Assembly (NCBI GenBank): GCA_951406725.2
Contig: OX597825.1
Span: 13,888,001 to 13,952,000 of the forward strand
Direction of reading: 5' to 3'
Source: Octopus vulgaris
Taxonomy: Eukaryota
Length of the DNA: 64,000 nucleotides
Notes under the pieces: generated by a model
Database searches by the model: none
What the model was told of the DNA's origin: nothing
What the model saw: the letters and a program-made list of their open reading frames with translations, nothing else
Part shown: positions 1,166 to 58,625 of the stretch, in pieces
How positions within the stretch are numbered: position 1 is the first letter of the stretch
Layout of the letters: each line of letters starts with the position of its first letter
Made by a program: the position numbers and the translations under genes

Positions 1166-1436
1166 TATATTTAAGAGACAAGGAATTATGTACATTATAT
1201 ACATTATTTATATTATTTATATTTGACGGATATTTGTCCTCATCTTGTTTGTTGTTAACTCAACAGTTTGGCTTATATACCCTCCAGCCTTCATCGGGTG
1301 TCTTGGGGAAATTTTGAACCTGGGTTCTCATTCCTAAGGTATTTTTCGATGTTATTATTATTCAGGTCACTGCCTGGAATCAAACTCGGAATCTTGGGGT
1401 TAGTAGCCGTGCTCTTAACCACTATGCCATATGCCC
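1166..1436 (-). mobile_element. tRNA-headed, hammerhead-bearing short retroelement (family A), degenerate ribozyme copy
   Basis: Minus strand reads: tRNA-like head (TGGCATAGTGGTTAAGAGC...GAGTTTGATTCC), (TAA)n, body, mutated HHR core at 1257-1302, then tail ...GTACATAATTCCTTGTCTCTTAAATA. Matches copies at ~5880, ~22125 and ~48870. Confidence 0.75.
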
Positions 1437-1576
1437 ACGGTTAAGAGTGCTGGCTACTAACCCCAAGATTCCAAGTTTGATTCCAGGCAGTGACCTGAAT
1501 AATAATAATAATAATAATAATAATAAAAACATTAAAAAATACCTTAGGAATTAGAACTGAGGTTCGAAATTTCCTC
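1305..1576. repeat. Fold-back inverted duplication of the family A element
   Basis: 1305-1420 is the reverse complement of 1439-1576, apart from substitutions and a longer TAA tract. The spacer is 18 nt. Confidence 0.9.
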
Positions 1577-1581
1577 CTTAT

Positions 1582-1727
1582 ATCAACCCCAGCATATAAT
1601 TTATCGGCCCCGAAAGGATGAAAAGCAAAGTCGACCTCAGCGGAATTTGAACTCAGAACGTAACGGCATACAAAATATGGCTACGCATCTCGCCCGGCGT
1701 GCTAACGTTTCTGCCAACTCACCGCCA
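1582..1727 (-). mobile_element. tRNA-derived SINE with Deu/Nin-like central domain (partial)
   Basis: Reverse complement contains GTTCAAATTCCGCTGAGGTCGACTTTGCTTTTCATCCTTTCGGGG. Many copies occur in the window. Confidence 0.7.
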
Positions 1728-2243
1728 TCAGGAGTAGGGTATCACCAACAAATGGTGGATGCTGTGTAACACTGTTGTAGTGCATTCACCCATACAGTAC
1801 AGTTTATTTATTTGGTGATGTTGTTCTCGAGATACCTCAAGCTTGTTTCATAAACTGACAACGATTTTATCTGTGCCAACAACAGCAACAACTAGAATAT
1901 GATTCTTGAGTGATACCTAACTAGTAATCAATAATGTGAACTGAAAATAAATCAATGTTAAAATAATCGATGATGGAACATTTCCATTAATTGTTTTGGC
2001 TTGTCTGAGACAAAGTATCTAAAGTAAAGAACTGCTATCCTAGCATCTACAACTTATATGGATCATACATAGGACAAAGGAATCATCGTATTGGACAACT
2101 AAACCAATATTTTGGGTCAAGCAATTCCAATAACGTGATTCTTGTCTCAGATATCTGACCCAGACAGTGTTGACAAGTGATTAAATTGCAGTAAACTAAC
2201 GAAGTTCTTTCTATTGCGATCATTGATCTCAAAAATATTCAGA

Positions 2244-54307: not shown

Positions 54308-54352
54308 ATCCGCGTAAAGGAAATGATAAACCCAGTGTAAACAGAAAGCGTG
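54308..54352 (+). CDS. 45-nt coding microexon of the same Ig gene (stalk with basic KR motif)
   Basis: Branch-like GGCTAAT at 54276-54282, polypyrimidine tract ending ctttcAG (54306-54307), donor G|GTAAGC (54353). Phase 1-1. Joined to 25003 it reads ...VHVLN-DPRKGNDKPSVNRKR(G) with no stop. Confidence 0.8.
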
Positions 54353-56835
54353 GTAAGCCAACATTTTCTTGCTCAAGCTTTCAATTTCCATGGTTGTGTG
54401 TACGAGTATTTTGAATTTATAACAATAAAGGAAACGTTGATTTTTTTTTCCCCCTAACTTACACTTATTTGTGGCAAATCTTAGTGCAACATAGATATAT
54501 TTTTATGATTGCCCTCCATAAGTATTTATCTATCAATTTTTATATATGTATGCAAACAGACAAGCATAATTGCATATATATAGAAAGAAATAGATAAATA
54601 AATAGATAGATATATTTACATGTATGTATATACACATGCAAATATATTAAGCATTTTTTCCCCCCTTATGTCAGCAAATTTGTGTTCATAATATTGTGAA
54701 AATGTATGTAGAGATATTTTTTTTATTACATTGTTAAATGAATTCTCCTTTTACTTGTGACCAAATATCATTTTATCATTTATATTATTATTATTATTAT
54801 TATTATTATTATTATTATTATTAGATACCTGCATGCTTTACAGATACGATTTTCTTTTCTGTTTTTTTTTTTTTTTTCGTTTTTTTTAAAAAATATATTT
54901 GCTTTTTGTCTTACACTCTCTGTTGCATTTTTAGTTATTCTTGCTCGTAGACTGTTAGTAATTTTTTCTTTTATTTCGGTAAATTTTCTTAGTAAAATGT
55001 TTTTGGTGAAATCTCGCTGCTTGAATGTCAATACTTACTACAATATAGCAGCACTTGATACTGTCAATCATTTTCATGTGTTAATGTCAGCATGTATTAA
55101 TTTTCTTTTTGTTTACAGTTATTGCCAAACAAACTTTCTTATATATATCTTCGATTTCATGCTGAGTATATTTTCATGTTTCACTTTCTCAGCATTTAAT
55201 TTCTTATACTTCTCGTCTTTATTTTACTATTTTAACTATTTTACTACACGTTTTATGTTTATCATTGTGAAGAAATTGTGAATTCATATATGTATATGTA
55301 TATATATATATATATGTGTGTGTGTGTGTATATATATATATATATATATATATATATATATATATATATATATATACATATTTATATATATAAACATATT
55401 TATATATATATATATATATATATATATTTATATATATATATATAAACATATATTATATATATATATATATATATGTATTTATATACATGCATATATGTAA
55501 ATATATGCATATGTTTGTATATACATACATACATATGCATATATATATATATATATACATGTATATATGTATATATGTGTATATATATATATATATATAT
55601 ATATATAAATCCTATATACATATATATATATATATGTATATGCATATATATGTCTACATATATTTATATGTATATATGTATGTAGGTACACACATATACA
55701 CGTATGTATATGTGTGTATATACATATATATATGTATGTATATATATGTGTGTGTACATACATATATGTATATATATAGATGTATATATTTATAAATCAA
55801 TGCAATTTATCTTGGTTGTTCTAAATAAATTTTATTTGTAGACTATTTTTTTGTTTTATTGTCATGAAAACTGTGATAGAAACATGAAATTCCTTTCAGG
55901 AATTAATCTGTTCATAATATTTGCACACACACAGACACACACACAAACACGCACACACACGAACATACACACACATTCATGCATGAACCCATGTTAAAAA
56001 ACTCTACATGCATAAACTTATATATGTATATAAGTTTATGTATTTCTGCACTCTTTTAATGACACACTTATGTGTACTTTGGTAAATGTGTGTGTATCTG
56101 CATATATACATATATATATATATATATATATATATATATGCAGATACACATTTATATATATATATGCAGATACAAATTTATATATGTATATATATATATA
56201 TATATATATATATACACATATACATATACACACACACACAATCATTATTGCTTCACGCACCATAGTTATATGCAAATAACATTATATAGATGTGTATATA
56301 CACAGTTTCTTGTGTTTATACTCATAGAAACACAGATTCCCATATACATAAATGCTTGTGTGTGTATATACTCGTATATCTATGTATATGCACACACGCA
56401 CACACACACACACACACACACGTACACACACACACACATACATGTACCCACACATGCACACACATACGTGTACTCACACATGCACACACACACACATGGA
56501 CATTTTGTTTTATGCAGTTTTCCAATGCAGACATTTTAAACCTGTTAGCTCGCTGACTGATGTTAAAAGCATCCAACATGGTTATGAGTAATTAGCTATG
56601 CAATTTCACATGTTGTTTCACTTGATAAGCTACAATCTAAATCAAAGCTGTGACTAATATTATCGTTAACATTAAGGAAATTACCTTGACCAGATTCAAT
56701 CAATAGTCTATGTAGTTCTTAGTTGGTGCATTTCTAATAGATAGCTTGTCATCACTTGTTTAATCAACTATCTGTTATCATAGTTATTTGCTCTCATCTG
56801 CAGTAATATGCCGCAGAAGAAATTTTAAAAGTGCT

Positions 56836-57252
56836 GAATCTTTTCGGTTTGAACGGCAGTTTTTAACATAATTTCTAGGTAACTAAAAAATTTTAAACTT
56901 CGTATACTGGTAGAATGTGTTTATAAAACATCTTTTTCTTTTGGCTTTATTGAGAAAATTCTATAGTTTGTAAGATATTTGTGGTTGTTTTTTTCTTCAA
57001 TTTCTGCAATTTCAACCAATCAATGACGTCTATTGAGGTAAAAGAAAAAAACATTCTGTGCCGTATGAATATGTCCCTCATTTAAGAAACAGATTGGGTT
57101 TATTTACATTTGTGAAGAAAAAAAGGTACCATTCCCCCACCCCTAACCCTAAAAGAGATTGAAATGCAATAGATCGATTCTAGGGTCATAATTATGGGTG
57201 ACAATTTCATATGACACCGCTAGAAAAACTGCCGTTCAAACCGAAAAGATCC
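56836..57252. mobile_element. MITE with perfect 27-bp TIR core and 8-bp TSD
   Basis: ATCTTTTCGGTTTGAACGGCAGTTTTT (56838-56864) has its exact reverse complement at 57224-57250. Flanks are AAAGTGCT / AAAGTTCT (7/8). Confidence 0.88.
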
Positions 57253-58589
57253 AAAGTTCTCGCTCTAAAACCTTACAGAAGGAGTTTCAAATACATAAAA
57301 GTAAAGAAACAAATATAAAAAAAAAACTTATAAAATATAAAGAAAATTTAAATTTAAGTTAAAAAGAAAAACTACAGGGCGATAGGATATAGACGTGCCA
57401 TCGTGTTTAATTTTTACGAATGTGTTAAGTTCTATAGTAATATGTTTCGGAATGCTCATAGTAAGATTAACACGGCTGCTTTAGCATTTTGGAGTTGAGC
57501 CAAAGGTATTAATGTGAAATAAGCAAAGAATAAAAATGTTCATTTTTTTTGTCAAGAAATATTTATGGATTGTATATAGTCATTTTATATTATTGTATTT
57601 CTCTCAAAAATATTGCATCACATTCTTATCAGTTGCTATGTCATGCCATAAGCCGCAGACAGTTTTCTGTTCAAATATTAGAATTTCCATTGTATTGCTT
57701 CAGATAAATCTTCCAGAGTAAAAGTAGATATGAACTGTATTCATCGAATATAAGACAATTTTTTCTCTCATATAAAAAAAGTAAAATGTCTAAAAAAAAA
57801 AATCGTCTTGGGACCTGTATTTCAAGATGGGTTTATATCACATAATTTAATGCATTAAATACTGTTTCTCCTGAGTATGTGCTGTGAAAATTGATAGGTG
57901 TCTAATTACATGTATGTGTCTTTTATGCCACCAAATACAGTTGACGTGTCAGGTAAAATGGACAACAGTTGAATCCATTTAGAGATGTATGTAGGTAGAT
58001 GTGAATGTGTGTGTGTATATATATGTATGTGTGTGTGTATATATGTATGTGTGTATATATATATGTATGTGTGTGTGTGCATGTATATGTATGTGTGTGC
58101 ATATATATATATATACACACAAACACATACACACATATATATATATATGTGTCTGTAGATAGGTACATATATCTATGTATGAATCTAGGTTTTAATATAT
58201 TTAATCTACTTGCTTGATGAATGACCCATGTATCATATATATATCATGTCAATTAGCTTCATATGCTGAGGTCTAGTGAATATGTTTCAGATGAAAGACC
58301 AGTAATAAGTTGGTGTGTGTGTGTGTGCACATGAGCACACACAGACATACACATACAAACACACAGAGTTATATAGTAAAATATTTCTTTACCTTCACCC
58401 ATTTAATACAATGAGTAAGTTTATTGCATTGCAATTAAAAACACTTGTGTATTAATAATTGGGTATTATACCAACAGTATATTGGATAAGTGTTATCCCT
58501 TAGTGGGTTTGATCCACAACCCCTAAATTACTTGGTGTTTCTCTCCTTTTTTTCTCTCCTTGTTTCTCTCCTCCTTTTTTTCTGTGTCC

Positions 58590-58625
58590 CTTTCTGTATA
58601 AGAGCATAGGCTCGAAACGTAAAAG
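58590..58625 (+). ncRNA. Degenerate minimal hammerhead-like motif (family B relative)
   Basis: CUUU CUGUAUA A GAGC AUAG GCUC GAAA CG UA AAAG. The stems are perfect but core positions 6 and 8 deviate. Confidence 0.45.

What the first reader, a model, noticed from the sequence alone, without database searches (positions are those of the whole stretch)
1257..58625. Eleven hammerhead-ribozyme motifs from four unrelated repeat families inside one gene's introns
Seen: the ordered pattern stem I - CUGANGA - stem II - GAAA - short palindrome - UH - stem I' recurs at these sites. Family A: 1257-1302(-), 5931-5977(-), 22179-22224(-), 48870-48910(-). Family B: 25792-25826(+), 35882-35916(-), 58590-58625(+). 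Family C: 27619-27698(-), 53328-53395(+). Family D: 46812-46872(-), 46882-46942(+). The stems differ completely between families yet still pair. Known: minimal type I hammerheads with a tiny palindromic stem III are a hallmark of Penelope-like element (PLE) pseudo-LTRs and of non-LTR retrozymes, and are thought to cleave as dimers. Inference: at about one motif per 6 kb, this genome may hold a very large, unannotated ribozyme-bearing non-autonomous retroelement system. In this small sample, all four motifs on the host gene's sense strand have a non-consensus core (U4C, A9G, A13G, A6U/G8U), while the intact cores are antisense. That would fit selection against cleaving the pre-mRNA.
Basis: partly seen in the sequence, partly recalled or inferred. 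Interest (0 to 1): 0.85.

Follow-up and report, generated by a model that had tools for sequence, protein, structure and literature searches.

The report
Penelope retroelement ends carrying hammerhead ribozymes
The hammerhead-ribozyme motifs are there and sit at the ends of shortened copies of common jumping genes (shown to be Penelope-like elements for three families, likely for the rest), which is known biology; the new part is that one parent element carries a tRNA-like sequence just before its ribozyme that may act as its promoter.

Summary
All 11 motifs are at the stated places, but only 2 have an intact core and all stems (shuffles 0). A 12th was missed (35358-35407).

They come from at least 7 families with thousands of copies each. 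Families A, C1 and C2 are 3' ends of 5'-truncated Penelope-like elements (PLEs) encoding GIY-YIG-type endonucleases; RT was also seen for A. No parent ORF was found for B, B', D or E. This is the known PLE minimal hammerhead, not a tandem retrozyme system.

Sense-strand selection is not supported: in 1.26 Mb of exon-anchored DNA, intact cores were 10/31 sense and 7/21 antisense (p=1.0). U4C and A6U are family traits. The window is about 3x denser than that sample.

Two features were not found in the papers searched:
(1) Family A's parent carries a tRNA-like A/B-box module between ORF stop and hammerhead (30/30 loci). Most copies begin at its first base. A distant metagenomic PLE has the same layout. 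Pol III transcription is plausible but untested; fold-back at a palindrome is a serious rival.
(2) Family E (5,997 exact 20-mers) has a compensatory G3-C8 core swap.

The parts
1197..1574 (.). Family A head-to-head insertion. Minus arm: tRNA-like head (+1 at 1436, to about 1364), (AAT)n, hammerhead 1257-1302 (U4C, G12 lost), ORF-N-terminal tail. Plus arm 1439-1574 is the inverted copy.
5870..6031 (-). Family A copy without head; hammerhead 5931-5977, core intact but stem III palindrome lost
22119..22360 (-). Family A copy with a fully intact minimal hammerhead (22179-22224), (AAT)n and the 3' end of the head
48870..49408 (-). Family A copy: hammerhead 48870-48910 cut before stem I'; head at 49338-49408, separated by another repeat (about 48955-49181)
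41152..41277 (-). Family A parent fragment: end of the PLE ORF running into the tRNA-like head, no hammerhead
62047..62106 (+). Family A tail-only fragment
25735..25899 (+). Family B copy next to (TA)n; hammerhead 25792-25826 with U4C, the family majority state
35813..35970 (-). Family B copy; hammerhead 35882-35916, also U4C although antisense
58590..58663 (+). Family B' copy; A6U is a family trait, G8U is private
27565..27757 (-). Family C1 (young; top matches 96-100% identical), 3' end of a GIY-YIG-type PLE; intact hammerhead 27619-27698; ends in (TA)n
53268..53446 (+). Family C2, 3' end of a related PLE; hammerhead 53328-53395 with private A13G and a loop deletion
46772..46985 (.). Family D head-to-head pair; hammerheads 46812-46872 (-, A13G) and 46882-46942 (+, A9G), both private changes
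35358..35407 (+).
24713..25003 (+). Host Ig-domain exon between AG and GT splice signals; the only host exon confirmed, and the basis for 'sense'

Best explanation
The motifs are minimal type I hammerheads in the pseudo-LTR ends of 5'-truncated Penelope-like retroelements (shown for families A, C1, C2; likely for B, B', D, E), and the copies are likely inert, neutrally decaying by-products of retrotransposition.

Mechanism:
1. Shown: the hammerhead lies downstream of an ORF with a GIY-YIG-type endonuclease. In A the ORF also shows RT, and the hammerhead overlaps the start of the next ORF unit.
2. Inferred from the Anolis PLE: the protein nicks AT-rich or (TA)n DNA and starts reverse transcription inside uncleaved RNA, 60-130 nt past the hammerhead. 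Every copy therefore keeps the ribozyme.
3. Inferred: early stops and fold-back give short solo and head-to-head copies.
4. Inferred: the tiny palindromic stem III needs a second same-strand copy, so solo and opposite-strand copies would not cut host pre-mRNA. No strand bias was seen.
5. Shown: family A's parent has a tRNA-like A/B-box module in the spacer before the hammerhead, and most copies begin at its +1.
6. Inferred, about even odds: the module is an RNA polymerase III promoter that makes a short SINE-like RNA, which the PLE protein copies.
For: Link to a protein-coding parent:
- 30 of 30 loci picked on the endonuclease peptide have the head just after the stop, and 22 of 30 have the hammerhead within 300 nt. 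Two loci are the sources of the query or probes, so 28 of 28 and 20 of 28 are independent.
- A natural copy has a 569-aa frame with RT (DKG motif; RVT_1 E 2.7e-6; a second copy 2.4e-10) and a C-terminal endonuclease. Some relatives carry GIY-YIG.
- The hammerhead and tail translate to a peptide matching the N-terminus of full-length relative P0003 (12/20 identical, E 1e-5), as in the Anolis PLE (PMC11167929 passages).
- Endonuclease fragments lie in several C1 and C2 loci; Pfam support is weak (E 0.009).

Copy number: exact-pattern counts are A 1,690, B 12,605 and E 5,997, with controls 0.

Covariation: stems covary between families. 97 of the first 100 listed E matches are G3/C8, none C3/G8.

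Neutral decay: core substitutions 11/202 against 148/2175 elsewhere, p=0.56.

No strand bias: 10/31 against 7/21, p=1.0.

The head:
- It aligns with the genome's own tRNA genes at best Z 6.7-7.8. A+B box scores are 19.9-25.6, reached by 0 of 100 shuffles in 6 of 6 copies.
- 5' ends: 12 of 13 arms in an unbiased set, and 14 of 18 among hammerhead-picked loci, start within -17..+8.
- The head 20-mer has 2,803 copies, the 20-mer just upstream has 865, and 181 have head plus native leader.
- Metagenomic PLE L330 has the same layout in both pLTRs.
Against: - No cleavage assay was possible.
- No parent ORF was found for B, B', D or E; two candidate links turned out to be separate Neptune-like PLEs.
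- ARAGORN (12 loci) and Rfam (one locus) do not call the head a tRNA.
- 5' ends also cluster in families without a head. In C1, 9 of 19 lie at -105..-82, partly because of the query. D and E often occur as inverted pairs.
- Three raw RNA runs (one study, about 6% of each read) show family A on both strands about equally and no pile-up of ends at the head or the cleavage site. This fits read-through and does not show Pol III activity.
- T-run depletion is not significant against codon shuffles.
- The strand test has only 52 core-spanning copies, so a mild bias is not excluded; intron status was assumed from exon anchors.
Confidence: 0.85

Rival explanations
1. The tRNA-like head is a passive captured SINE or tRNA relic. 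Family A copies start there only because the cDNA folds back at the short palindrome centred on the head's first base.
For: Most copies starting at +1 sit beside an inverted copy. RNA reads have loose ends at that junction that read back into the head (411, 333 and 308 reads). Families C1, D and E, without A/B boxes, also form inverted pairs or clustered 5' ends. Short and long copies do not differ in the head.
Against: A stem of about 5 bp would have to stop roughly 70-90% of cDNAs within 30 nt. Exact fold-back arms of 8 bp or more near the hammerhead occur in only 4 of 25 D loci. A distant PLE (L330) keeps A and B boxes 158 nt before its hammerhead, while 9 other full-length metagenomic pLTR windows lack them.
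Confidence: 0.45
2. One reading: host selection removes or inactivates cleavage-competent hammerheads on the sense strand of introns.
For: In the window, intact cores are 0 of 5 sense against 4 of 7 antisense, p=0.08; this counts family E's compensated core as not intact. A preprint reports fewer tandem retrozymes in Xenopus introns (10.64898/2026.07.22.740005).
Against: Outside the window: 10/31 against 7/21, p=1.0. Strict hits are 5 sense and 6 antisense. U4C is the B majority (17 of 24 loci), A6U is the B' state, and a G3-C8 core sits on the sense strand in the window.
Confidence: 0.07
3. B, B', D and E are true non-autonomous short elements moved in trans by Neptune- or Hydra-like PLEs, rather than truncated ends of coding elements.
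For: B copies cluster at one 5' end (13 of 28 within -80..-69 on the reference). No linked ORF was found in 30 B or 25 D loci. Neptune-like PLEs ending at (TA)n exist in the genome.
Against: Samples are small and picked on the 3' end. Some D copies run more than 200 nt further upstream. Steep 5' truncation gives the same picture.
Confidence: 0.4
4. The motifs are chance matches.
For: Two-mismatch descriptors are noisy (8 hits against a shuffle mean of 3.6).
Against: Strict shuffles give 0; thousands of family copies exist; stems and the 3-8 core pair covary.
Confidence: 0.01

Closest known systems
[quoted passage not shown]
   Same: Type I fold, palindromic or absent stem III, extra base between A9 and G10.1 (families A, B, E), thousands of solo copies, opposite-strand pairs, core covariation at 3-8.
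   Different: That paper reports U3-A8; here family E has G3-C8. No tRNA-like module is mentioned in the parts read.
Penelope/Poseidon PLE of Anolis (PAc; PMC11167929, passages)
   Same: Hammerhead overlaps the ORF start; copies end downstream of an uncleaved hammerhead; no RNA reads pile up at the cleavage site.
   Different: Family A has a tRNA-like A/B-box module and (AAT)n in the pLTR spacer.
Schistosoma SINE-like hammerhead elements (seen only in review passages, PMC6765202; primary paper not held)
   Same: Pol III-type promoter and a hammerhead in one short element.
   Different: Those are tandem and non-coding. Family A's module is part of a protein-coding PLE and copies are solo or inverted.
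TRIMp3 elements Helenus, Ajax, Cassandra (PMC10886601, passages)
   Same: Small-RNA-derived Pol III promoter inside a terminal repeat.
   Different: Those are non-autonomous LTR elements; the paper has 0 occurrences of 'Penelope'.
Non-LTR retrozymes (PMC7229834 passages; preprint 10.64898/2026.07.22.740005 parts 1-2 of 5)
   Same: Type I hammerhead, PLE-related.
   Different: Retrozymes are tandem 170-400-nt units that make circular RNA; tandem arrays were not seen here.
Hydra-clade PLEs (PMC8557442, section 11 and passages)
   Same: C1 and C2 insert at (TA)n, have canonical cores and a CxxC near the endonuclease end.
   Different: Clade assignment was not tested by a tree; no RT was recovered for C1 or C2.

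Membership tests
Minimal type I hammerhead | Core CUGANGA / GAAA / UH with stems I and II | tested here: met
   Complete in A3 and C1 and in the majority state of A, C1, C2. B has U4C, B' A6U, E G3-C8.
Minimal type I hammerhead | Short palindromic stem III allowing a dimer | tested here: met
   Palindromes in A, B, C1, C2, E and a near-palindrome in D. Cofolding lowers the energy by 2-10 kcal/mol (prediction only).
Minimal type I hammerhead | Self-cleavage as a dimer | not testable with these tools
   Needs an assay. No read-end pile-up, which is weak evidence.
EN+ Penelope-like element (family A) | Single ORF with RT (DKG motif) and C-terminal GIY-YIG endonuclease | tested here: met
   569-aa natural frame, RVT_1; some relatives carry PF01541. 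The endonuclease itself had no Pfam hit.
EN+ Penelope-like element (family A) | Hammerhead in the pLTR; 5' truncation; inverted 5'-adjacent copies | tested here: met
EN+ Penelope-like element (family A) | Full-length unit between two direct pLTRs | tested here: inconclusive
   No complete copy seen in 32 loci; the tail-to-N-terminus match implies the tandem form.
Penelope/Poseidon clade (family A) | No CX2-5CxxC linker between RT and endonuclease | tested here: met
   Absent, present in Neptune-like copies. No named reference was in the tree.
EN+ PLE (C1, C2) | GIY-YIG-type ORF upstream of the hammerhead end | tested here: met
   weak Pfam hit E 0.009; RT not recovered.
EN+ PLE (B, B', D, E) | Linked RT/endonuclease ORF | tested here: inconclusive
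   None in 30 B or 25 D loci or in the E copies seen.
Non-LTR retrozyme | Head-to-tail arrays of short hammerhead units | tested here: not met
   Solo or inverted copies; only 2 direct pairs among 95 B, C1, C2 and D loci; no such array in the window.
tRNA-derived SINE (family A short copies) | tRNA-like head with A and B boxes at the 5' end | tested here: met
   not called by ARAGORN or Rfam.
tRNA-derived SINE (family A short copies) | Lineage independent of the coding partner | tested here: not met
   Same commonest bases; head divergence 7.9% against 8.1%.
tRNA-derived SINE (family A short copies) | Pol III transcription | not testable with these tools
   The RNA-seq cannot show it.

The most novel reading that the evidence does not exclude
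A lineage of protein-coding Penelope-like elements uses a captured tRNA-derived Pol III promoter in its pseudo-LTR. It makes a short head-hammerhead-RT-binding RNA that its own protein retrotransposes as a built-in SINE, and possibly also a T-run-poor full-length RNA. The layout recurs in a distant PLE (L330).
Probability: 0.35. Interest if true: 0.75.

Novelty: new variant of a known kind. Interest (0 to 1): 0.5.

Why it matters
The hammerheads themselves are known PLE biology. If the tRNA-like module is a working promoter, it would be a Pol III promoter in a protein-coding PLE, which was not found in the searches run. It would also give a concrete route by which SINE-like or retrozyme-like elements bud off PLEs, and bear on how PLEs are transcribed and why they keep a ribozyme they may not need for insertion. 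Family E's G3-C8 swap, in thousands of young copies, suggests selection on the core in source elements. Together with the U4C and A6U families it offers natural variants for cleavage tests.

Tried and rejected
- Rfam scan of the window: microsatellite-driven miRNA hits, no hammerhead in the 150 rows shown.
- First descriptor without the extra base after A9 missed families A and B.
- ARAGORN and Rfam did not call the head a tRNA.
- First idea of an independent tRNA SINE was rejected: the head is part of the coding parent and short copies are not a separate lineage.
- RT hits beside B locus L056 and D locus L088 were followed up and are separate Neptune-like PLEs.
- Host gene model beyond one exon was not recovered in 204 kb.
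- T-run depletion as a Pol III sign: no majority run of four or more T over about 2 kb against 3 expected, and 0 in 4 of 5 A copies against 2.6-9.3 per kb in 7 other PLE frames. It is not significant against codon shuffles, and two LINE frames are also low; L330 P=0.14. Suggestive only.
- Plain multiple alignment across families was uninformative.
- Run search: no holder on record as RNA.
- First metagenome scan found nothing.
- The tree is the quick method only.
- No earlier findings of this scan matched.
- Lunse et al. on PLE hammerhead dimers (title seen in a reference list) and the Schistosoma primary paper were not held, so a prior report of G3-C8 or of tRNA-like pLTRs there cannot be excluded. 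No supplements were read; Repbase and Dfam could not be checked.
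Full report
SETTING. The window lies on contig C12 of a 2.8-Gb animal genome. It is likely an octopus; this is my recalled impression of the repeat landscape and was not pursued. 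One Ig-domain exon lies at 24713-25003 (+). No other host exon was found in 204 kb, so 'sense' rests on that exon.

OBSERVATION. All 11 motifs are at the stated places. A strict descriptor gives 2 hits against 0 in 40 of 40 shuffles, and 5 against a mean of 0.7 with one core mismatch. Only A3 and C1 are complete. A1, B2 and D1 are antisense yet have non-consensus cores. A twelfth motif at 35358-35407 (+) has GUGAACA in place of CUGANGA.

FAMILIES. Exact-pattern counts are A 1,690, B 12,605 and E 5,997, with reversed-pattern controls 0. C1, C2 and D each gave 1,500-2,000 first-look candidates, of which 40 were scored; the top C1 and E matches are 96-100% identical to the window copy. B, C and D copies end in (TA)n. 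Head-to-head pairs are common in A, C1, D and E. Stems differ between families but pair. U4C is the B majority (17 of 24 scored of 30 loci). A6U marks sister family B', to which B3 belongs. 97 of the first 100 listed E matches are G3/C8, a compensatory swap of the tertiary 3-8 pair. Natural U3-A8 covariation and reduced activity of U4C are described in PMC3088659 (passages); a G3-C8 variant is mentioned in PMC3884650 (passages).

PARENTS. Two of 30 family A loci held a GIY-YIG-type endonuclease fragment. A search with it gave 4,878 candidates, 150 scored. In 30 of 30 fetched loci the stop codon is followed by a tRNA-like head, and in 22 of 30 by (AAT)n and the family A hammerhead within 300 nt (two loci are not independent). 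One natural copy keeps a 569-aa RT-endonuclease frame without a zinc-finger linker, which suggests the Penelope/Poseidon clade. The hammerhead and tail encode a peptide matching the N-terminus of a full-length relative, as in the Anolis PLE, where reverse transcription starts downstream of an uncleaved hammerhead (PMC11167929 passages). C1 and C2 loci carry related endonuclease frames. No ORF was linked to B, B', D or E.

SELECTION TEST. I fetched 140 10-kb regions anchored on kinase and Ig exons of known strand. Fourteen neighbours of the window were set aside for the main count. Profiles found 61 hits in 1.26 Mb, 52 spanning the core. Intact cores were 10 of 31 sense and 7 of 21 antisense (p=1.0); with all 140 regions, 12 of 35 and 7 of 24 (p=0.78); in the window, 0 of 5 and 4 of 7 (p=0.08). 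In 20 A copies picked on the protein, core positions mutate like the rest (5.4% against 6.8%, p=0.56). The claim of selection is not supported, although the sample cannot exclude a mild bias.

THE tRNA-LIKE MODULE, FOR. The head aligns with the genome's own tRNA genes (best Z 6.7-7.8, mostly tRNA-Arg, among 30 tRNA loci). A+B box scores exceed 100 of 100 shuffles in 6 of 6 copies, while 8 windows from B, C1, C2 and D do not. 5' ends cluster at its first base: 12 of 13 arms in an unbiased set and 14 of 18 in hammerhead-picked loci. Genome-wide, the head 20-mer has 2,803 copies, the 20-mer just upstream 865, and head plus 12 native upstream bases 181. With rough match rates from 32 loci this is a 3- to 10-fold drop within 30 nt. 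Among 69 metagenomic PLE loci, L330 is a tandem element with A and B boxes 158 nt upstream of the hammerhead in both pLTRs, followed by a short AAT run (score 19.4, 0 of 100 shuffles). Nine other full 260-nt pLTR windows were negative, and one 50-nt window was uninformative. Two unrelated strong A/B hits occur elsewhere in those 210 kb. In a quick tree its protein falls in a 16-row clade with family A (support 92), and the box-negative elements in the tree (L335, L343, L344) fall outside.

THE tRNA-LIKE MODULE, AGAINST. The first base sits in a short palindrome and most such copies are fold-back pairs. C1 also clusters (9 of 19 ends). Short and long copies share bases and age. tRNA finders do not call the head. 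Three RNA runs from one study show both strands about equally, with depth falling from hammerhead to head to ORF and no pile-up of ends. T-run depletion is only suggestive.

MECHANISM. PLE RNA, uncleaved at its 3' hammerhead, is likely reverse-transcribed from a site past the ribozyme into AT-rich or (TA)n DNA. Early stops and fold-back leave short solo and head-to-head copies. These likely cannot form the same-strand dimer that the palindromic stem III requires, so they decay without harming the host transcript. In family A the pLTR spacer is a tRNA-like module that may start Pol III transcripts (about even odds).

KNOWN VERSUS NEW. Minimal PLE hammerheads, their abundance and opposite-strand pairs are described in PMC4209133 (parts 1-2 of 4 read), and PLE architecture in PMC8557442 (passages and section 11). 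A repeat annotation of Octopus vulgaris lists 31 recently active Penelope-like families (PMC13282606, parts 1-2 of 3). A giant squid paper counts 235 hammerhead loci (PMC6962438 passages). Searches for PLE with tRNA-like or Pol III terms gave 0 papers; two related searches listed no such report by title or abstract opening. The Lunse et al. paper, Repbase, Dfam and all supplements were not seen.

VERDICT. A real feature of a known kind; the selection claim is not supported. It has one unusual architectural variant worth testing and one family-wide core swap. Interest 0.5.

Noticed in passing
L330:1013-1230 and 3804-4020: Tandem PLE (2,791-bp unit) from a metagenome contig with A/B boxes, an AAT run and a hammerhead in both pLTRs; only two runs of four T in the unit, both just after the hammerhead.
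   Followed up: partly
window 27958-28518 (+): About 190-aa frame resembling the C-terminal end of a non-LTR retrotransposon (RTE-like, recalled); no Pfam hit.
   Followed up: no
window 24217-24480 (-): Fragment of a LINE C-terminus, 150 bp from the host exon; similar frames in L020, L029, L139.
   Followed up: no
window 49898-50216: 24-bp tandem repeat, 13 copies, open in several frames.
   Followed up: no
L223, L229, L285, L324, L117, L215: Further hammerhead families (F-J) with long stem II and 6-8-nt palindromic stem III, outside the window.
   Followed up: partly
L056:2126 to L328:1060; L088:2333 to L329:950: Neptune-like PLE copies with the CxxxxCxxC linker; no hammerhead found in their 3' ends by my descriptor.
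   Followed up: partly
L280, L303: A D subfamily also carries U4C, so U4C occurs in more than one family.
   Followed up: no
G000:C12: All 9 matches to the host Ig exon lie on the same contig, a single-chromosome Ig gene family.
   Followed up: no
L161: Cluster of 7 tRNA genes in 3 kb, mostly Cys(GCA), with anticodon variants.
   Followed up: no
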